The notes: generated from the sequence alone by a model not told the origin. A stretch of DNA of 64,000 bases from Escherichia coli (GCF_041886205.1 NZ_CP169029.1); one strand, 5' to 3'; counted from the stretch's first letter, positions 6,041 to 58,381 are shown. Program-made: numbers and translations.

Positions 6041-6117
6041 TGGCGGAACGGACGGGACTCGAACCCGCGACCCCCTGCGTGACAGGCAGGTATTCTAACC
6101 GACTGAACTACCGCTCC
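6041..6117 (-). tRNA. aspU: tRNA-Asp (GUC), distal tRNA of rrnH
   Basis: Exact reverse complement of E. coli tRNA-Asp including the CCA end (tggcggaacggacgggactcgaacccgcgaccccctgcgtgacaggcaggtattctaaccgactgaactaccgctcc). Confidence 0.97.
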
Positions 6118-6169
6118 ACCGAATTCTTTTACAACCACCGGTTTTATGACCGGCTTAATGCTTAATTTG

Positions 6170-6289
6170 ATGCCTGGCAGTTCCCTACTCTCGCATGGGG
6201 AGACCCCACACTACCATCGGCGCTACGGCGTTTCACTTCTGAGTTCGGCATGGGGTCAGGTGGGACCACCGCGCTACGGCCGCCAGGCA
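6170..6289 (-). rRNA. rrfH: 5S ribosomal RNA
   Basis: 120-nt exact reverse complement of E. coli 5S rRNA (tgcctggcggccgtagcgcggtgg ... ctgccaggcat). Confidence 0.97.
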
Positions 6290-6381
6290 AATTCTTTTTT
6301 ATCAGACCGCTTCTGCGTTCTGATTTAATCTGTATCAGGCTGAAAATCTTCTCTCATCCGCCAAAACACCTTCGGCGTTGT

Positions 6382-9285
<2,904 letters not shown>

Positions 9286-9394
9286 TCACAACCCGAAGAT
9301 GTTTCTTTCGATTCATCATCGTGTTGCGAAAATTTGAGAGACTCACGAACAACTTTCGTTGTTCAGTGTTTCAATTTTCAGCTTGATCCAGATT

Positions 9395-9405
9395 TTTAAA
9401 GAGCA
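9395..9405 (-). promoter_or_regulatory. boxA-like antitermination element in the 16S-23S spacer
   Basis: Minus strand reads tgctctttaaa, matching the boxA core (TGCTCTTTAACAA) used by the rrn antitermination system. Confidence 0.5.
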
Positions 9406-9468
9406 AAACTTCGCAGTGAACCTTTGCAGGTACACTCTGAAGTATTTTTTATTTAATCACTACAGAGA

Positions 9469-9544
9469 TGGTGGAGCTATGCGGGATCGAACCGCAGACC
9501 TCCTGCGTGCAAAGCAGGCGCTCTCCCAGCTGAGCTATAGCCCC
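9469..9544 (-). tRNA. alaV: tRNA-Ala (UGC), spacer tRNA
   Basis: Exact reverse complement of E. coli tRNA-Ala(UGC) with CCA. Confidence 0.97.
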
Positions 9545-9586
9545 ATAACATGTAGTTAAAACCTCTTCAAATTTGCGGTGCAAATT

Positions 9587-9663
<77 letters not shown>

Positions 9664-9731
9664 GTAGAGGTTTTACTGCTCATTTTCATCAGACAATCTG
9701 TGTGAGCACTGCAAAGTACGCTTCTTTAAGG

Positions 9732-11273
<1,542 letters not shown>

Positions 11274-18040: not shown

Positions 18041-18865
18041 ATGGATAAACCAAAGGCGTACTGCCGCCTGTTTCTCCCCAGCTTTCTTTTACTTTCGGCC
18101 TGTACCGTTGATATCAGCCAGCCAGACTCATCAGCCACGGCGGTAGATGCCGAGGCGAAAACATGGGCTGTCAAATTCCAGCATCAAAGCTCTTTCACCG
18201 AACAATCAATAAAAGAAATAACGGTACCTGATCTCAAACCCGGCGATTTGCTGTTCTCCTCAAGCCTTGGGGTAACCTCATTTGGAATCCGCGTCTTCAG
18301 CACTTCCTCTGTGAGTCACGTTGCAATCTATCTGGGTGATAATAACGTTGCAGAAGCGACAGGCGCTGGCGTCCAGATCGTTTCCCTTAAAAAAGCGATG
18401 AAGCATAGTGATAAGCTTTTCGTCTTACGAGTCCCGGATCTTACCCCGCAACAAGCCACAGATATCACCGCGTTTGCCAATAAAATCAAAGATAGCGGTT
18501 ATAACTATCGCGGCATTGTCGAATTTATTCCCTTTATGGTGACTCGCCAGATGTGCTCACTGAATCCGTTCTCCGAGGATTTTCGCCAACAGTGCGTCAG
18601 CGGCCTGGCGAAAGCGCAGTTAAGCAGTGTGGGCGAAGGAGACAAAAAGTCGTGGTTTTGTTCGGAATTTGTCACTGATGCATTTGCCAAAGCCGGGCAT
18701 CCGCTTACGCTGGCGCAATCAGGCTGGATTAGCCCTGCCGATCTGATGCATATGCGTACTGGCGATGTCTCTGCGTTTAAGCCAGAAACGCAGTTACAGT
18801 ATGTTGGGCACCTGAAGCCAGGGATTTATATCAAGGCGGGTCGCTTTGTTGGTTTGACCCGGTGA
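18041..18865 (+). CDS. yaeF: Lipoprotein YaeF (NlpC/P60-like permuted papain-fold peptidase family)
   Basis: Start at MDKPKAYCRLFLPSFLLLSAC (signal peptide plus lipobox), 274 aa; the track ORF from 17987 is over-extended into the proS terminator. Confidence 0.88.
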   Translation: MDKPKAYCRLFLPSFLLLSACTVDISQPDSSATAVDAEAKTWAVKFQHQSSFTEQSIKEITVPDLKPGDLLFSSSLGVTSFGIRVFSTSSVSHVAIYLGDNNVAEATGAGVQIVSLKKAMKHSDKLFVLRVPDLTPQQATDITAFANKIKDSGYNYRGIVEFIPFMVTRQMCSLNPFSEDFRQQCVSGLAKAQLSSVGEGDKKSWFCSEFVTDAFAKAGHPLTLAQSGWISPADLMHMRTGDVSAFKPETQLQYVGHLKPGIYIKAGRFVGLTR

Positions 18866-18926
18866 TAAAAACAAGCCTCAGAGTGTTTATATAAATGCCT
18901 TATCCGCCTTAAGGTATGAGGGGGTT

Positions 18927-19009
18927 GTAGGCATGATAAGACGCGTCAGCGTCGCATCAGGCGTTGAGCGCCATTGCCGGATGCGGCGTGAACGCCTTAT
19001 CCGGCCTAC
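18927..19009. repeat. BIME: two REP (repetitive extragenic palindrome) units in inverted orientation
   Basis: gtaggcatgataagacgcgtcagcgtcgcatcaggc (18927-18962) and gccggatgcggcgtgaacgccttatccggcctac (18976-19009); canonical REP consensus. Confidence 0.85.
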
Positions 19010-19084
19010 GAAAAGCGTGTAAAATCAAAATGTTGAGATACATCCTTCTAGCCTGTTTTGCGTTTTTTTCTGCCTTAAGCAGGT

Positions 19085-19795
19085 TTACTGCCCCAAACTA
19101 CTGCAATCCTGGTTTGGGTAAAATTTCCCTACCGTATCGGGTGCCAATACTTTAGTCGGCGCACCGGTATCCGGATTAGCTTCAAGCGTAAAGTGACCTT
19201 CTACTGACAGTAACACCGGTTTTTCACTGTGGCCGCGCGCAGCCAGGTAGCCACGCTCCAGCTCTGCGTTATTCGCTACCATGAAACGTTTTCCGGTCGC
19301 GCAATCAGTGAAGGTCGCCGCATCAGCCATATAAAAATACATGCCCCGCAGGGTCATCGGCGTCAGGGGTAAACTGGATTGTGCCGGTTCCAGCGTATAG
19401 TTGAACTGCGATTCAATCGGATTGCCTTCACGATCGAGCATCTCCAGCGCATCGCCTTTCGCCCGATAATATGACTTTTCACCTTTGCTGTCGGTTAATA
19501 CCAGCTTGTCAGCGGTTCGCGCCCATGTACCGTAGGAAGCGAAGGAGGAAGGTTCTTCACGAGCACCAAGATAACGCTCATTCATCACCCATGTTCCGTC
19601 TTTTTCGAGGAACAGAGAGGTTTCGATTCCTTCGCAATCGGCACACGGTAGCACGCCGCGCCAACTTTGCGGCATCGGTTTCAGTTCGGCAGCCTGCGCC
19701 GGAGAAAGCGTATCGACTTCGGCCCGATTATTACATCCCATCAGAGTAAAAAGGCTGATTACAGCCATCGCTGTCACTATCGCTTTTTTCACCAT
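19085..19795 (-). CDS. nlpE: Outer-membrane lipoprotein NlpE (Cpx pathway activator)
   Basis: 236-aa ORF; lipobox (LMGC); CxxC motif; recognised NlpE/CutF. Confidence 0.95.
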   Translation of the reverse strand: MVKKAIVTAMAVISLFTLMGCNNRAEVDTLSPAQAAELKPMPQSWRGVLPCADCEGIETSLFLEKDGTWVMNERYLGAREEPSSFASYGTWARTADKLVLTDSKGEKSYYRAKGDALEMLDREGNPIESQFNYTLEPAQSSLPLTPMTLRGMYFYMADAATFTDCATGKRFMVANNAELERGYLAARGHSEKPVLLSVEGHFTLEANPDTGAPTKVLAPDTVGKFYPNQDCSSLGQ

Positions 19796-20938: not shown

Positions 20939-21139
20939 GTGGAAAAATATTGTGAGTTAATACGCAAGCGGTACGCGGAAATCGCCAGCGGAGACTTAGG
21001 ATACGTTCCGGACGCGCTGGGCTGCGTTTTGAAAGTGCTGAATGAAATGGCTGCCGACGACGCCCTTTCTGAGGCTGTCAGGGAAAAAGCAGCATACGCT
21101 GCGGCAAACTTACTGGTGAGCGATTATGTCAATGAATGA
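20939..21139 (+). CDS. yaeP: UPF0253 family small protein YaeP
   Basis: 66-aa protein ([24 protein letters not shown]...) from a GTG start at 20939 preceded by AGGAGG; the track ORF from 20921 adds six upstream codons. Confidence 0.8.
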
Positions 21140-21386
21140 TACGTATCAACCAATCAATTGTGATGATTACGATAATCTTGAGCTAGCCTGCCAGCATCAT
21201 TTAATGCTGACACTTGAGCTGAAAGATGGCGAAAAATTGCAGGCAAAAGCCAGCGATTTAGTCTCCCGCAAAAATGTGGAGTATCTGGTCGTCGAGGCCG
21301 CTGGCGAAACCCGTGAGCTACGTCTGGATAAAATTACCAGCTTTAGCCACCCGGAAATCGGTACGGTGGTGGTGAGCGAGTCCTGA
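21132..21386 (+). CDS. rof: Rho-binding antiterminator Rof (YaeO)
   Basis: 84 aa from [19 protein letters not shown]; overlaps the yaeP stop (atgaATGA); an alternative start two codons upstream at 21126 is possible. Confidence 0.9.
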
Positions 21387-21394
21387 TTGACTTT

Positions 21395-21428
21395 CGCCGG
21401 ATGCGACGTTTGATGCGTCTTATCCGGC
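21395..21428. repeat. REP element between rof and tilS
   Basis: cgccggatgcgacgtttgatgcgtcttatccggc, a REP-like imperfect palindrome. Confidence 0.7.
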
Positions 21429-21434
21429 TTTCAC

Positions 21435-22733
21435 TTAACTAAGCGTTTTCTGCCAGACAAAACTTACGCCATTCTCACCTTCAGCCACACCTTCTTGCGT
21501 CACAAATACCCCTGCCGCCGCAATCAGCGTTTCGCCATAAAACAGCAGTGGCGTGGTGTCACGTAGCCACGGCGGCACGCCTAACTCTTGCCAGATTTTC
21601 TTCAGCTTACGTCCGCCGTTGCGCCCGACAATATGCAGCAATCCTGCCGCTTTGAAACGCACGCTGACCGCTTCGTCTGCACGCGGAGGGCGAATATCGA
21701 CTCCCGCAGTAAGCTGTACACTTCCCAGCCCCGCCGGTAATTCCAGCGGTTGTAGCCACGTCTGCCACGGCACAATGGTTTCGCTTTGCCCGGCAACGGA
21801 TTTAATCCACCACAGTTGCGATTGATAGCGGCGTATTTCAAACGCGCCAAAGCGTAAACAGGGGGAGGCATCTTCCCGCGCCAGCGCCACTTCCTGCCAG
21901 ATCCGCACCAGCGCGTCGCGGGAAGGCATCGGTGCATTCTGCCCTGCCAGCCAGCGGCGGATAATTGCCGCGCGACGGGCATCACTCATCGCCAGCATTG
22001 GCGCAATCTGCAGCGTCCCCTGCGGCGTTTGGCAGTGCGCTAAATCATCTGCCAGCAATTCATCCAGCAGGCTCTCTTGTTCAGCACAAAGTGCGGCGCT
22101 GCGAGCCGTTGCTTCGGCAAAATGCGGCCAACGCTGCTGCAATAACGGCACTACACGCAGGCGCAGAAAGTTACGATCGTATGAGTCGTCCTGATTACTT
22201 TCGTCTTCAATCCAGCGTAAACCATGCGCTAATGCCCACTGCTCCAGTTCCCCCCGCGTGCGGGCGAGCAACGGGCGGATAAGCCGTGTTCCGGCAAACT
22301 CCGAAACTTCCCCCATAGCCGAAAGCCCGGCAGGACCGCTACCGCGTTTTAGCGCCAGCAGAAAAGTTTCACATTGATCGTCGAGATGTTGCGCGGTGAC
22401 CAGCACTTCACCGGGCAACAAGGTGCGGGCAAATGCCTGATAACGCACCTGCCGCGCCTGGGCCTCAATCCCCAGCCCCTCTTGCGCAAGTTGTACGCGT
22501 TCGACCACCAGCGGCACCTGCCACTGTTGGCAGACGTTTTCGCAATGCGTAACCCAGGCATCGGCATTGGCACTTAAACCGTGATGCACATGAATAGCGC
22601 GCAGAGTGACGCCCGGATTTTCCGTCCGCCACTGCACCAACTGATGCAGCAGAACGGTGGAGTCAAGCCCGCCGCTAAAGGCCACCAGAATCTGGCGTGA
22701 GGTGAGAAGTTGTCTATTGAGCGTGAGTGTCAT
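21435..22733 (-). CDS. tilS: tRNA(Ile)-lysidine synthetase
   Basis: 432-aa ORF with PP-loop motif (SGGLDS); recognised TilS/MesJ. Confidence 0.95.
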
Positions 22734-23243: not shown

Positions 23244-25385
23244 TTATCCCGCCATTTTTAGGACTCGTACGCGGTAAACGCCGTCTTCGTCCTGTTTCGC
23301 GCCGTGAATATCCGTTTCAAAACCGGGGTAATGTTGCCCTACGGAACAAAGCATCAGTAGAAAATCGAGTACCGTGCGGCTCTCTTTGGTCAGCATTTCT
23401 CCTGGCATCAACAGCGGTACGCCCGGTGGATAAGGCAGGATCATATTTGCCGATACTCTACCGACCAGTTGTTCCAGCGCAATGGTTTCTACTTCACCTT
23501 TAATCTGTCTCTGCCATGCCTGATGTGGCGTCATGATCATTTCCGGCAAAGTATCGAATGCCCGCAACATCAAACCGGGAAGATCGTGTTTACGAATCAG
23601 CTTATGGATCCCTTGCGCCAGATCCTGGATACGCATATTGCGGTAGAAATCGGGATCTTCAGCATAGAGATCGGGTAGCATATTTTTGATCCGCAGGTTG
23701 AGATCGTAAGAGCGTTTAAATTCCGTCAACCCACGCAATAATCCCATTGCTTTGGTTTTATCGATACCAATACTAAAGAGAAACAGCAGGTTATAAGGGC
23801 CGGTTTTCTCTACTACGATCCCACGTTCGTCGAGGAATTTTGCCACCAGCGCCGCCGGGATCCCCTCCTCGCTCATATTGCCCTGTTCGTCCATCCCCGG
23901 TGTCAAAATAGTGACTTTAACCGGATCGAGAAACATATGATCGGCATCCGCATCGTTAAAGCCGTGCCACTGTTCGCCAGGCGCAACGGGCCAGCATTCG
24001 GCTTCATCCACCTGCGGCGGTTGCCAGATATCGAAAAACCAACCGTCAGACTCTTCCCGCAACCGCTGGACCTCTTTGCGAAAATGCAGCGCCCGCTCCA
24101 CCGAACGGTTAATCAGCCGTTTGCCCGGATTACCACGCAGCATCGCCGCCGCCGTCTCAACCGAAGCAACAATGGGATAACTGGGCGAGGTGGTGGTATG
24201 CATCATAAAGGCTTCGTTAAACGCCTCTTCGTCATACTCGCCTTTAATGTGGATCAGCGAAGCCTGCGATAACGCCGCCAGCATTTTGTGGGTCGATTGC
24301 GTTTCGAAGATCACTTTTCCCGCAACACGCTCGCCGCTCATACCACTTTTCCCCTGGTAGATCGGATGAAAATGGGTGTACGGCACCCAGGCGGAATCGA
24401 AGTGGATCGACGGGACATCCAGCGTCTGTTTGATCCAGTCGGTGTTGTAGAGCAAGCCATCATAGGTGGAGTTGGTAATCACCGCATGAACCGGCCATTG
24501 TGCCTGCGTGGTGGCAGCGACTTTCTCTTCGATGCTGTCGCGAGTAAATTCACGGCGCGGGATCCCACCAAGAATCCCCAACGCATTACGCGTCGGTTTC
24601 AGCCAGACTGGCACTACATCGTTCATCATCAACAGATGCGCCAGCGATTTATGACAATTGCGGTCGATCAACAGCGTACTGCCGGATGGCGCGGCGTACA
24701 TACCCACAATTTTGTTCGACGTCGATGTTCCGTTGGTAACGATATAACTCTGTTCCGCGCCAAAAGTCCGCGCGATGTACTCTTCCGCTTCCAGGTGTGG
24801 CCCGGTGTGGTCGAGCAACGAACCAAGCTCGGTAACCGAAATAGAGACATCAGCCTTGAGGGTATTCCCGCCGAAAAAATCATAAAACAGACAGCCAACC
24901 GGGCTTTTTTGATAGGCGGTACCGCCCATATGCCCCGGCGTACAAAAGGTGTACTTCCGCTCTTTGACGTAGGTAAACAAGGCTTTCGTGAACGGCGGTG
25001 TAATGTTATCAAGATATTCGTCGGTGTACTGACGCATACGAATGGCGATATCTTCCGCCTGCCCCAGCGCATATTCAAAAAACCAGAGCGCCATCCGCAT
25101 ATCCTGCACGCTGACATCCATCGTCGAGTGGGTGTTGATGAAGGCATAAAGCGGGAGATATTCATTAAGCTGATTGATATCGCTACATAAATCGAGACTG
25201 TACTCATCCCAGTCAAAAATCACGCCGCAAATTCGAGGGTTATGTTCGATAAATTTCAGCAAATCAACGCTGTTTTGTGGCCAGATAATCTGAAAGCCTT
25301 GCGCCAGCAGCGCCGACTCCAGTTCTTTGATGGGCTCATCTTTATAAAAGACGCCATGCGGTCCCATAATGGCAATGATGTTCAT
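23244..25385 (-). CDS. ldcC: Constitutive lysine decarboxylase
   Basis: 713-aa ORF; Orn/Lys/Arg decarboxylase fold with PLP-lysine region (STHKML); sequence and context (yaeR-ldcC-accA) indicate LdcC rather than CadA. Confidence 0.95.
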   Translation of the reverse strand: MNIIAIMGPHGVFYKDEPIKELESALLAQGFQIIWPQNSVDLLKFIEHNPRICGVIFDWDEYSLDLCSDINQLNEYLPLYAFINTHSTMDVSVQDMRMALWFFEYALGQAEDIAIRMRQYTDEYLDNITPPFTKALFTYVKERKYTFCTPGHMGGTAYQKSPVGCLFYDFFGGNTLKADVSISVTELGSLLDHTGPHLEAEEYIARTFGAEQSYIVTNGTSTSNKIVGMYAAPSGSTLLIDRNCHKSLAHLLMMNDVVPVWLKPTRNALGILGGIPRREFTRDSIEEKVAATTQAQWPVHAVITNSTYDGLLYNTDWIKQTLDVPSIHFDSAWVPYTHFHPIYQGKSGMSGERVAGKVIFETQSTHKMLAALSQASLIHIKGEYDEEAFNEAFMMHTTTSPSYPIVASVETAAAMLRGNPGKRLINRSVERALHFRKEVQRLREESDGWFFDIWQPPQVDEAECWPVAPGEQWHGFNDADADHMFLDPVKVTILTPGMDEQGNMSEEGIPAALVAKFLDERGIVVEKTGPYNLLFLFSIGIDKTKAMGLLRGLTEFKRSYDLNLRIKNMLPDLYAEDPDFYRNMRIQDLAQGIHKLIRKHDLPGLMLRAFDTLPEMIMTPHQAWQRQIKGEVETIALEQLVGRVSANMILPYPPGVPLLMPGEMLTKESRTVLDFLLMLCSVGQHYPGFETDIHGAKQDEDGVYRVRVLKMAG

Positions 25386-57285: not shown

Positions 57286-57909
57286 ATGCTCGTCTATTGG
57301 CTGGATATAGTCGGCACAGCGGTATTTGCCATCTCCGGCGTTTTGTTAGCCGGAAAATTGCGTATGGACCCTTTTGGTGTTCTGGTACTGGGCGTGGTAA
57401 CCGCAGTAGGCGGCGGAACAATTCGCGACATGGCGCTGGATCACGGCCCGGTATTTTGGGTGAAAGATCCCACCGATCTGGTCGTTGCAATGGTCACCAG
57501 CATGCTGACCATCGTGCTGGTGCGCCAGCCAAGACGCTTACCAAAATGGATGTTGCCGGTGCTGGACGCCGTTGGTCTGGCGGTGTTTGTCGGCATTGGC
57601 GTGAATAAAGCCTTTAATGCGGAAGCCGGTCCGTTAATCGCGGTTTGCATGGGCGTCATTACTGGCGTTGGCGGCGGGATCATTCGTGATGTACTGGCCC
57701 GAGAGATCCCCATGATTTTACGTACAGAAATCTACGCAACTGCCTGTATTATCGGCGGTATTGTCCACGCTACGGCTTATTACACATTTTCCGTACCACT
57801 GGAAACAGCCAGTATGATGGGCATGGTCGTGACGCTATTGATTCGGCTGGCGGCTATTCGTTGGCATCTTAAGCTACCGACGTTTGCGCTGGATGAGAAT
57901 GGGCGTTGA
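57286..57909 (+). CDS. yadS: Inner-membrane protein YadS (UPF0126, glycine-transporter-like repeats)
   Basis: 207-aa hydrophobic ORF with duplicated GGGxIRD motif. Confidence 0.9.
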   Translation: MLVYWLDIVGTAVFAISGVLLAGKLRMDPFGVLVLGVVTAVGGGTIRDMALDHGPVFWVKDPTDLVVAMVTSMLTIVLVRQPRRLPKWMLPVLDAVGLAVFVGIGVNKAFNAEAGPLIAVCMGVITGVGGGIIRDVLAREIPMILRTEIYATACIIGGIVHATAYYTFSVPLETASMMGMVVTLLIRLAAIRWHLKLPTFALDENGR

Positions 57910-57919
57910 AGAGAGAAGA

Positions 57920-57944
57920 TGTGCCGGATAGTTTATCCGGCACA
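57920..57944. terminator. Hairpin between convergent yadS and erpA
   Basis: tgtgccggatagtttatccggcaca perfect inverted repeat with no clear T-tract; possibly a bidirectional terminator or REP-like element. Confidence 0.45.
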
Positions 57945-57955
57945 TGAACAACAGA

Positions 57956-58300
57956 TTAGATGCTAAAGGAAGAACCGCAACCGCAGGTGCTTTTCGCGTT
58001 CGGGTTGGTCACGATGAAACGAGAACCTTCCAGTCCTTCGGTGTAGTCAACGGAACCGCCGACCAGATATTGCAGGCTCATCGGATCAACCACCAGGCCA
58101 ACGCCCTGTTTTTCGATGGTCATATCGCCTTCGTTCACCTGATCATCAAAGGTGAAACCATACTGGAAGCCGCTGCAACCGCCACCGGTGATATACACGC
58201 GTAATTTCAGATTCGGGTTATCTTCGTCAGCGATCAGGCTTTTAACTTTGTTGGCTGCTGCGTCGGTAAACTCCAGCGGCAGTGCTACGTCATCACTCAT
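57956..58300 (-). CDS. erpA: Iron-sulfur cluster insertion protein ErpA (A-type carrier)
   Basis: 114 aa from [19 protein letters not shown]; C-terminal CGCG motif; the track ORF is extended 11 codons upstream. Confidence 0.94.
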
Positions 58301-58381
58301 ATTTTGCTCCAAACGACATCGGCAATTGGGCAAATTCTAACCCAATAATAATCGCCATTATCTAATACCCTGGTATTTCGT

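What the first reader, a model, noticed from the sequence alone, without database searches (positions are those of the whole stretch)
18927..19009. BIME (paired inverted REP elements) between yaeF and nlpE, plus a single REP after rof
Two canonical REP palindromes in opposite orientation lie 13 bp apart in the yaeF-nlpE gap, and a single REP-like palindrome sits at 21395-21428 between rof and tilS. These are the only repetitive extragenic elements I see. REP/BIMEs bind gyrase and IHF, act as mRNA stabilisers and are targets of the REP-associated tyrosine transposase, so their copy number and orientation are strain-variable markers.
Basis: seen in the sequence. Interest (0 to 1): 0.2.

Follow-up and report, generated by a model that had tools for sequence, protein, structure and literature searches.

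The report
Known E. coli REP/BIME repeats

Summary
Observation confirmed. Window 18927-18962 (- strand) is a Z2-type REP, 2/36 mismatches to the published consensus. Window 18976-19009 (+) is a Y-type REP, 1/34 mismatches. They are inverted and 13 nt apart. A third, Y-like REP lies at 21396-21428, 9 nt after the rof stop and 6 nt before the tilS stop. No match is expected by chance.

They are the orthologues of K-12 REP16 and REP15. The pair also hits Rfam naRNA4 at 86.3 bits, which is in effect a model of a Y-linker-Z2 unit.

The yaeF-nlpE element is more than a pair. It is a chimeric ("atypical") BIME: decayed Y remnant, Z2, S linker, Y, L linker with a perfect IHF core (19023-19035), truncated Z1.

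The locus is polymorphic in 5426 complete E. coli genomes:
- this chimeric allele: 2042 genomes
- Y-L-Z1 BIME-1 allele: about 2540
- REP-free 29-bp terminator-like hairpin: 511
- IS621- or IS1397-disrupted forms also occur

The rof-tilS REP is nearly fixed (5238/5426).

Other Enterobacteriaceae carry plain bidirectional terminator hairpins at both junctions, so the REPs are derived replacements. The most likely role is a bidirectional terminator and 3'-end protector.

Already known; low interest.

The parts
18894..18913 (+). Probable decayed Y palindromic unit. Only the 3' arm remains (AATGCCTTATCCGCCTTA), as if about 18 nt had been deleted internally.
   Evidence: Direct repeat of the Y 3' arm, 15/18 identical (D2). 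Its left flank AAATGCC is shared with the flank of the intact Y unit in allele B. Inference only; the match is short.
18927..18962 (-). Z2-type REP / palindromic unit. GTAG lies at the outer (5') end on the + strand. There is one extra stem mismatch (ATCATGC instead of ATCAGGC), shared with K-12.
   Evidence: 2/36 mismatches, 0 expected by chance. Hairpin -14.8 kcal/mol, z = -5.2.
18963..18975 (.). 13-nt short (S-type) head-to-head linker of the BIME-2 unit.
   Evidence: Same length as the 13-nt linker of the Rfam naRNA4 consensus, 8 of 13 positions identical. S-linker definition from PMC3333891.
18976..19009 (+). Y-type REP / palindromic unit ending in CTAC.
   Evidence: (1/34 mismatch, 0 expected by chance). 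Hairpin -21.3 kcal/mol, z = -4.9. The K-12 orthologue (216053-216093) is listed as REP16 and as a bidirectional terminator overlap.
19010..19045 (.). L-type long linker of a BIME-1, carrying a perfect IHF core consensus AATCAAAATGTTG at 19023-19035.
   Evidence: Aligns with the Y-to-Z1 linker of allele B genomes. WATCAANNNNTTR has only 3 matches in the 64 kb, and this is one of them. Binding of IHF was not tested.
19046..19055 (-). Remnant of a Z1 palindromic unit (TTCTAGCCTG). The remaining 22 nt or so are deleted relative to allele B.
   Evidence: Alignment of alleles A and B.
21396..21428 (+). Single Y-like REP (K-12 REP15) between the rof stop (21384-21386) and the tilS stop (21435-21437, - strand). 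The tail is TTTC rather than CTAC.
   Evidence: identical in K-12. Hairpin -22.0 (+) and -19.0 (-) kcal/mol, z about -4.9 and -4.6. Listed as REP15 and as a bidirectional terminator. IS1397 is inserted in its loop in strain NCTC10444.

Best explanation
The two features are the E. coli REP elements known in K-12 as REP16 (yaeF-nlpE) and REP15 (rof-tilS).

REP16 here is a chimeric BIME. It reads: decayed Y, Z2, 13-nt S linker, Y, L linker with an IHF core, truncated Z1. REP15 is a lone Y-like unit.

Both lie in the gap between convergent genes. Neither gap holds a canonical intrinsic terminator.

Most likely mechanism (inferred, with published K-12 support): when either gene is transcribed, the REP RNA folds into stable hairpins on either strand. 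These hairpins stop or pause RNA polymerase, partly with the help of Rho, and block 3'-to-5' exonucleases. The effect is to set and protect the 3' ends of both converging mRNAs and to limit antisense read-through.

The elements originated as mobile or selfish DNA handled by the REP-associated tyrosine transposase RayT, which this genome encodes. They replaced the plain bidirectional terminator hairpins that occupy the same junctions in REP-free E. coli alleles and in other genera.

For REP15 there may be an additional effect. The hairpin foot is 9 nt from the rof stop and 6 nt from the tilS stop. That is inside the range of fewer than 16 nt within which REPs were reported to stall terminating ribosomes and lower translation.
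For: Identity:
- Consensus matches, with 0 expected by chance.
- Orthologous elements in K-12, named REP16 and REP15 in Table 16 of bioRxiv 10.64898/2026.03.23.713779.
- Multicopy in every genome.
- Full-length Rfam naRNA4 hit, 86.3 bits against a gathering score of 59.5.
- REP-specific insertion sequences use exactly these units in other strains. IS621 sits at ATCAGGCCT^AC of Z1, IS1397 in the Y loop, and IS1397 in the REP15 loop. Their target rules are given in PMC1525189 and PMC11208160.
- Architecture follows from the allele alignment, the BIME definitions in PMC3333891 and the IHF core.

Function:
- Both gaps lie between convergent genes.
- Hairpins are stable on both strands, z from -3.9 to -5.2.
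- No terminator-like site was found in either gap.
- 511 E. coli genomes have no REP between yaeF and nlpE, only a 29-bp A-tract/GC-stem/T-tract hairpin of -21 kcal/mol.
- In 80 other Enterobacteriaceae species the nlpE 3' junction carries classical bidirectional terminators such as AAAAAACCCCGC..GCGGGGTTTTTT. The rof-tilS gap carries a non-REP GC hairpin, genus-specific REPs, or in some genera only a 1-20-bp gap with no stable hairpin.
- Both K-12 elements are listed among the 78 REPs that coincide with the 306 bidirectional terminators identified by an earlier study, flagged log and stationary phase.
- Genome-wide, REPs between convergent genes go with higher expression of both genes.
- rayT is present in the source genome.
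- The stop-codon distance rule is taken from PMC12306157, which cites Liang et al. 2015.
Against: - No transcript data exist for this strain. Termination and stabilisation are inferred from position, folding and K-12 literature.
- The same preprint found no general difference in mRNA half-life for REP-flanked genes.
- The REP-free allele's hairpin was not called a terminator by the simple scan, because its 3-nt T run is absorbed into the stem. 'Terminator replaced by REP' therefore rests mainly on the outgroups.
- Three very different alleles coexist at yaeF-nlpE. This suggests the exact element matters little, which fits near-neutral selfish DNA equally well.
- Klebsiella, Raoultella and Kluyvera have a 15-16-bp rof-tilS gap with no hairpin at all, so a hairpin there is not indispensable.
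Confidence: 0.8

Rival explanations
1. Purely selfish or neutral DNA. The REPs are RayT-mobilised passengers that landed in tolerant gaps at gene 3' ends and have no host function. The terminator-like behaviour is incidental.
For: - Presence/absence and architecture are polymorphic at yaeF-nlpE: 2042, about 2540 and 511 genomes.
- Decayed units lie beside the intact ones.
- rayT is in the genome.
- Both BIME units keep the GTAG foot and the stem mismatch that RayT requires.
- REPs at the rof-tilS gap differ in type, orientation and number between Escherichia, Salmonella and Citrobacter. This points to repeated independent arrivals.
Against: - REP15 lacks GTAG, yet is kept almost unchanged in 96.5% of E. 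coli and in E. albertii.
- The gaps have no other terminator.
- Published K-12 data place transcript ends there.
- Origin as selfish DNA and present use as a terminator are not mutually exclusive.
Confidence: 0.25
2. The pair encodes a naRNA4-like nucleoid-associated non-coding RNA. This RNA would bind HU and help condense the chromosome by bridging REP cruciforms.
For: Full-length match to Rfam RF02564 naRNA4 above the gathering score on the - strand, which is the nlpE sense strand. The model comes from REP325 units of the same Y-linker-Z2 design.
Against: - The Rfam family is in effect a model of any Y-S-Z2 unit, so the hit shows architecture and not function.
- The 2026 preprint from the same laboratories reports that neither deletion nor overexpression of REP325 changes nucleoid volume. 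It also reports that REP-REP contacts are not seen and that no stable HU-cruciform-naRNA4 complex forms.
- There is a single unit here, against six in REP325.
Confidence: 0.05
3. The element acts at the DNA level. It would be an IHF-binding (L linker) and gyrase-binding (Y-S-Z2) site that relieves the positive supercoils building up between converging transcription units.
For: - A perfect IHF core lies 13 nt from the Y tail, in a linker homologous to the BIME-1 L motif.
- BIME-1 L linkers often carry IHF sites.
- Gyrase cleavage of BIME-2 is cited.
- Convergent gene pairs are where positive supercoiling accumulates (general knowledge).
Against: - The core consensus alone is weak evidence: 3 matches in the window against 2.1 expected overall.
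- The partner Z1 unit is truncated.
- 511 genomes do without any REP here.
- No binding data were obtainable with these tools.
Confidence: 0.15
4. For REP15 specifically: a translational attenuator. The hairpin foot is so close to the rof and tilS stop codons that terminating ribosomes stall, which triggers mRNA cleavage and tmRNA tagging and lowers Rof and TilS output.
For: - The distances are 9 nt (rof) and 6 nt (tilS) from stop codon to stem.
- REPs fewer than 16 nt from a stop were reported to down-regulate translation (Liang et al. 2015, as cited in PMC12306157).
- The spacing is conserved in E. coli and E. albertii.
Against: - The primary paper could not be read here, so it is unknown whether rof or tilS was among the genes tested.
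- In many other genera the non-REP hairpin overlaps the tilS stop just as closely. Close packing may simply reflect a short gap.
Confidence: 0.3

Closest known systems
E. coli K-12 REP16 (yaeF-nlpE) and REP15 (rof-tilS), as annotated in MG1655
   Same: Same genes on each side, same unit types, order and orientation. The Z2-S-Y segment differs at 4 positions (3 in the REP loops, 1 in the linker). REP15 is identical.
   Different: The window has 21 extra nt (18870-18890) next to the yaeF stop, found in only 2 of 5426 complete genomes. It also has one G fewer in the G run.
BIME-2 (Y and Z2 units in alternating orientation with a short S linker; gyrase target)
   Same: Z2 and Y, inverted head to head, 13-nt short linker, GTAG/CTAC on the outside.
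   Different: There is only one unit, not a tandem array. Its Y unit is also the Y of a BIME-1-type Y-L-Z1 arrangement, so by the published scheme the whole is an 'atypical' chimeric BIME.
BIME-1 / RIP / RIB element (Y, L linker with IHF site, Z1)
   Same: Y followed tail-first by an L-type linker of about 36 nt with an IHF core. It is orthologous to intact BIME-1 alleles in about 2540 E. coli genomes.
   Different: Z1 is reduced to about 10 nt here and in K-12.
naRNA4 / REP325 units (Rfam RF02564)
   Same: The same two-hairpin Y-linker-Z2 RNA design; 86.3 bits, full length.
   Different: A single copy in the 3' region shared by nlpE and yaeF, not a six-unit array. The proposed HU-dependent condensation role is itself disputed.
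REPINs (REP doublets forming hairpins, mobilised by RAYTs; Pseudomonas and others)
   Same: Two inverted REPs with a short spacer. On both strands the 83-nt core prefers one long hairpin, at -48.0 and -42.8 kcal/mol. A RAYT gene is in the genome.
   Different: The two arms are different unit types (Z2 and Y), so the long hairpin is imperfect. Mobility of this copy has not been shown.
Bidirectional intrinsic (Rho-independent) terminators between convergent genes
   Same: Same position and the same hairpin-on-both-strands logic. They occupy the orthologous gaps in REP-free alleles and in other genera.
   Different: The REPs have no U tract after the stem. Any termination is expected to be partial or Rho-assisted.

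Membership tests
E. coli REP / palindromic unit (Y, Z1, Z2) | Match to the 34-36-nt Y or Z2 consensus | tested here: met
   Y 33/34 and Z2 34/36 against the consensus sequences printed in PMC11208160. 0 matches in 100 shuffles. REP15 fits the degenerate pattern, with 2 mismatches confined to the tail.
E. coli REP / palindromic unit (Y, Z1, Z2) | Imperfect palindrome with the conserved internal mismatch, forming a stable hairpin | tested here: met
   Each unit folds with an internal mismatch. Energies run from -13.9 to -22.0 kcal/mol and z from -3.9 to -5.2.
E. coli REP / palindromic unit (Y, Z1, Z2) | Conserved GTAG (CTAC) tetranucleotide at the foot, required by RayT | tested here: met
   Present on both units of the pair (18927-18930 GTAG, 19006-19009 CTAC). 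NOT met for the rof-tilS REP, which has TTTC / GAAA. Requirement taken.
E. coli REP / palindromic unit (Y, Z1, Z2) | Extragenic location and high copy number in the genome | tested here: met
   Both lie between stop codons of convergent genes.
BIME-2 | Z2 and Y units in inverse orientation separated by a short S linker | tested here: met
   definition.
BIME-2 | Occurs as multiple tandem copies with s, l or r flanking motifs | tested here: not met
   There is a single Z2-S-Y unit. The spacer to the decayed Y (18914-18926) was not compared with reference s, l or r motifs, which were not available.
BIME-1 (RIP/RIB) | Y and Z1 separated by a conserved long L linker with an IHF site | tested here: inconclusive
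   Y and an L-type linker with a perfect IHF core are present, but Z1 is truncated to about 10 nt. The intact form exists in other strains. IHF binding is not testable here.
Atypical (chimeric) BIME | Combination of BIME-1 and BIME-2 components (y, z1, z2, L, S) in one element | tested here: met
   Z2-S-Y-L-(Z1 remnant) from the alignment of alleles. Definition.
Rfam RF02564 naRNA4 | Covariance-model score at or above the gathering threshold | tested here: met
   86.3 bits against 59.5, model positions 1-77 of 77, - strand. The rof-tilS REP matches only half the model, at 23 bits, below threshold.
Rfam RF02564 naRNA4 | Expressed RNA that binds HU and affects the nucleoid | not testable with these tools
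   No expression or binding data for this locus. The function is disputed in the literature.
Intrinsic (Rho-independent) terminator | GC-rich hairpin immediately followed by a U tract | tested here: not met
   No terminator-like site in 18866-19084 or 21387-21434. The tails after the stems are CTACGAAAAG, TTTCACTT and GAAAGTCA.
REPIN / RAYT system | A cognate RAYT gene in the same genome | tested here: met
   rayT is annotated at 878719-879216 of NZ_CP138428.1, about 48 kb from the element and outside the window.

The most novel reading that the evidence does not exclude
The yaeF-nlpE junction is a natural allelic series. It segregates in E. coli as a plain terminator-like hairpin (about 9%), an intact BIME-1 (about 47%), a chimeric Z2-S-Y-L BIME (about 38%) and IS621- or IS1397-disrupted forms.

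At both this junction and rof-tilS, REPs of genus-specific type have repeatedly displaced ancestral bidirectional terminator hairpins in the Escherichia/Salmonella/Citrobacter clade.

If REPs preferentially home to, or are selected at, such terminator hairpins, this locus would allow a direct test of the old question of what REPs do. Isogenic natural alleles would supply the comparison.
Probability: 0.4. Interest if true: 0.3.

Novelty: already known. Interest (0 to 1): 0.1.

Why it matters
It matters little as a discovery. REPs and BIMEs have been known since the 1980s, and these two copies are annotated in K-12.

The modest value is descriptive:
- It refines the anatomy to a chimeric BIME with an IHF-type linker and two decayed units.
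- It shows that one locus is a multi-allelic marker in E. coli while the other is essentially fixed.
- It documents that REPs occupy positions held by ordinary bidirectional terminator hairpins in REP-free alleles and in other genera. This fits the current view of REPs as local 3'-UTR terminators and stabilisers.
- The REP units are also natural landing sites for IS621, the bridge-RNA recombinase element, and for IS1397.

Tried and rejected
- MG1655 RefSeq annotation shows no repeat_region features in this stretch, so the REP numbers came from a preprint supplement instead.
- Liang et al. 2015 (Mol Cell) and Boccard & Prentki 1993 could not be read. The less-than-16-nt rule is second-hand. The L-motif consensus could not be compared with a reference, only with allele B of the same locus.
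- Supplements of PMC3333891 are not held.
- A first count of allele B, using a left-flank plus Y query, was contaminated by another locus: 4527 genomes at 80% coverage or more. It was replaced by an L-linker query in distant mode, which gave 2540.
- The simple terminator scan did not call the REP-free allele's hairpin. I therefore describe it only as terminator-like.
- The weak Rfam match of the rof-tilS REP to a plant microRNA family (MIR814, 21.7 bits against a gathering score of 90) is a generic hairpin match and was dismissed.
- Chance palindromes were rejected.
- The half-site hits at 23518, 24681, 32504, 33804, 58397 and 10878 have 1-2 mismatches, have no partner arm, and lie within ORFs or rRNA. 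They were treated as chance.

Full report
1. OBSERVATION

The stretch 18927-19009 reads GTAGGCATGATAAGACGCGTCAGCGTCGCATCAGGC / GTTGAGCGCCATT / GCCGGATGCGGCGTGAACGCCTTATCCGGCCTAC.
- The first 36 nt are the reverse complement of a Z2 palindromic unit, with 2 mismatches to the published Z2 consensus.
- The last 34 nt are a Y unit with 1 mismatch, in the loop.
- The consensus sequences are those printed in the methods of PMC11208160.
- Neither pattern occurred in any of 100 dinucleotide-preserving shuffles of the window.

The second feature is GCCGGATGCGACGTTTGATGCGTCTTATCCGGC at 21396-21428.

A pattern scan of all 64 kb on both strands found only these three full REPs.

The window is 100% identical to E. 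coli strain 6EVA (NZ_CP138428.1), whose RefSeq annotation gives yaeF 18041-18865 (+), nlpE 19085-19795 (-), rof 21126-21386 (+) and tilS 21435-22733 (-).

2. WHAT IT IS

K-12 MG1655 carries the same elements at the same places.
- The Z2-S-Y segment differs at 4 positions: 3 in the REP loops and 1 in the linker. The rof-tilS REP is identical.
- In Table 16 of bioRxiv 10.64898/2026.03.23.713779 the K-12 copies are called REP16 (Y hairpin at 216053-216093, genes arfB:nlpE:yaeF:yaeQ) and REP15 (213630-213673, rof/tilS).
This is the expected multicopy behaviour.

Rfam gives a full-length naRNA4 (RF02564) match on the - strand at 86.3 bits against a gathering score of 59.5.
- That family was built from the Y-linker-Z2 units of REP325.
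- The hit therefore certifies the architecture of a BIME-2 unit and says nothing about function.
- The rof-tilS REP matches only half the model and falls below threshold.

3. FINER ANATOMY

By the published scheme (PMC3333891):
- BIME-2 is z2 plus y with a short S linker.
- BIME-1 is z1 plus y with a long L linker that often carries an IHF site.
- Chimeras of the two are 'atypical' BIMEs.

Aligning the gap with other E. coli alleles shows that the Y unit and everything to its right is orthologous to an intact Y-L-Z1 BIME-1 present in many strains.
- In the window, 19010-19045 is the L linker. It holds a perfect IHF core, AATCAAAATGTTG, at 19023-19035. This is one of only three matches to WATCAANNNNTTR in 64 kb.
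- Z1 is cut down to about 10 nt (19046-19055).

To the left of Z2, 18894-18913 repeats the 3' arm of a Y unit at 15/18 identity. It sits next to the same AAATGCC flank that borders the intact Y in allele B. I read it as a Y unit with an internal deletion. This is an inference from a short match.

The element is therefore Y'-spacer-Z2-S-Y-L-Z1', a chimeric BIME with two live and two decayed units.

4. POPULATION

The gap is polymorphic. Counts come from allele-specific queries against 5426 complete genomes.
- Allele A (window and K-12 type): 2042 genomes.
- Allele B (Y-L-Z1): 2540 at 80% coverage or more, 2668 with any match.
- Allele C: 511 genomes. It has no REP. Only 29 bp separate the two stop codons, forming the hairpin AAAGCCGGAG-AATG-CTCCGGCTTT at about -21 kcal/mol on either strand.
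- The remaining few per cent include IS-disrupted forms.

IS-disrupted examples:
- Strain Ec1119 has IS621 inserted at ATCAGGCCT^ACGCAG of Z1. This is exactly the natural IS621 target ATCAGGCCTAC.
- Strain C25 has IS1397 in the loop of the Y unit with a 3-bp duplication. This is the known behaviour of that element.

The window's own variant has 21 extra nt at 18870-18890. It occurs in only 2 genomes.

The rof-tilS REP contrasts sharply. With its flanks it is present in 5238 of 5426 genomes. In at least one exception, NCTC10444, IS1397 sits in its loop. A unit-specific transposase recognises it there, which independently confirms that it is a true palindromic unit.

5. OUTGROUPS

A YaeQ-anchored scan of one genome per species returned 80 Enterobacteriaceae loci.

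Downstream of nlpE:
- Most genera lack yaeF. proS then converges on nlpE across a classical bidirectional intrinsic terminator, for example AAAAAACCCCGC..GCGGGGTTTTTT.
- Where yaeF is present the gap is 0-77 bp in most species (184 bp in one Cedecea) and usually holds a terminator hairpin; in a few species the two genes abut or overlap.

Between rof and tilS:
- E. albertii has the same REP.
- Salmonella arizonae has one REP-like palindrome in the other orientation.
- Citrobacter species have one or two REPs of their own type.
- Enterobacter, Leclercia, Kosakonia and relatives have a 25-30-bp gap with a non-REP hairpin, AACGGGCAGCC..GGCTGCCCGTT, overlapping the tilS stop.
- Klebsiella, Raoultella and Kluyvera have 15-16 bp and no hairpin.

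The REPs are therefore derived occupants of junctions that otherwise hold plain hairpins.

6. MECHANISM

Shown here:
- The position is between convergent genes.
- Hairpins are strong on both strands, with z from -3.9 to -5.2.
- The 83-nt core prefers one long inter-REP hairpin, at -48.0 and -42.8 kcal/mol, over two separate hairpins at about -36.
- No terminator-like site is present in either gap.

From the literature:
- Both K-12 copies are among 78 REPs that coincide with the 306 bidirectional terminators identified by an earlier study. They are flagged in log and stationary phase.
- REP325 acts as a partly Rho-dependent terminator and as a stabiliser of the upstream mRNA.
- REPs between convergent genes go with higher expression of both genes, although half-lives do not differ in general.

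Inferred: in this strain the elements set and protect the 3' ends of yaeF, nlpE, rof and tilS mRNAs and limit antisense read-through.

For REP15 the stem starts 9 nt after the rof stop and ends 6 nt before the tilS stop. That is inside the range of fewer than 16 nt reported to stall terminating ribosomes (Liang et al. 2015, as cited; the primary paper was not readable).

The source genome encodes RayT. Both units of the pair keep the GTAG foot and the stem mismatch that RayT needs. REP15 does not, which fits its immobility.

7. RIVALS

- Neutral selfish DNA: supported by the polymorphism and the decayed units, and not exclusive of the main reading.
- A naRNA4-like HU-binding RNA: weak, because the Rfam hit is architectural and the role is now disputed.
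- A DNA-level IHF and gyrase site: possible but untested.
- Translational attenuation at rof and tilS: possible but untested.
- Chance: excluded.

8. VERDICT

- The element is a chimeric BIME.
- The IHF-type linker lies outside the stated coordinates.
- Only one of the two loci is strain-variable.
- A further degenerate REP is in the window at 57920-57944, K-12 REP14.

Already known; interest is low.

Noticed in passing
window 57920-57944: A perfect 25-nt palindrome, TGTGCCGGATAGTTTATCCGGCACA, lies between convergent yadS (57286-57909 +) and the ORF at 57956-58333 (-), which by K-12 synteny should be erpA (not checked). It is the orthologue of K-12 'REP14' (176961-994), also listed as a bidirectional terminator. 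It keeps only the outer GCCGGAT/ATCCGGC stem of a REP.
   Followed up: partly
L007 1184-2472 (E. coli Ec1119) and L008 980-2410 (E. coli C25): In the same yaeF-nlpE gap of other strains, IS621 (IS110 family, the bridge-RNA recombinase element) is inserted at ATCAGGCCT^ACGCAG of the Z1 unit. IS1397 (IS3 family) is inserted in the loop of the Y unit with a 3-bp AAC duplication. The window's Y tail ATCCGGCCTAC differs from the natural IS621 target only at position 4. Mismatch tolerance at that position was reported for G (ATCGGGCCTAC); C was not tested.
   Followed up: partly
L090 195-290 (E. coli NCTC10444): IS1397 is inserted in the loop (TTTGA|TG) of the rof-tilS REP. This accounts for at least some of the roughly 3% of genomes that lack the intact element.
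   Followed up: partly
window 18870-18890: A 21-nt segment (AACAAGCCTCAGAGTGTTTAT) next to the yaeF stop is absent from K-12. It is present in only 2 of 5426 complete E. coli genomes (6EVA and wlxctx60). It resembles the left flank of allele B (GCCAGCCTCGTGCAC), so it may be an ancestral stretch deleted in most allele A strains.
   Followed up: partly
window 18864-18876 and 19051-19070: Short inverted repeats with A and T runs bracket the whole BIME: GATAAAAACAAGC and GCCTGTTTTGCGTTTTTTTC. In the - strand fold they close a large multibranch structure around both REPs. They could be the split arms of an older terminator hairpin, or chance.
   Followed up: no
L009-L088 (80 Enterobacteriaceae species): yaeF is absent next to nlpE in E. 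albertii and in most other genera, where proS converges directly on nlpE. Buttiauxella, Cedecea and some relatives have about 355 extra bp between tilS and rof.
   Followed up: no
window 6044-11273, 9293-9401, 44116-44225, 45064-45150, 54021-54066: Other Rfam hits above the gathering score: an rRNA operon with three tRNAs and 5S (- strand), StyR-44, CssrA sRNA, t44 RNA and the HtrA 5'-UTR thermometer.
   Followed up: no
L089 (NZ_CP138428.1 850000-880000; outside the window): In the source strain, rayT lies about 48 kb from the BIME. A type VI secretion gene cluster, with a frameshifted tssH and IS1 and IS256 copies, lies after the tRNA-Asp that follows dnaQ, and before yafV.
   Followed up: no
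window 18832-18848: The only terminator-like hairpin the scan finds near the gap (CAAGGCGGGTCGCTTTG followed by TTGGTTTG) lies inside the last codons of yaeF. It is probably coincidental.
   Followed up: no
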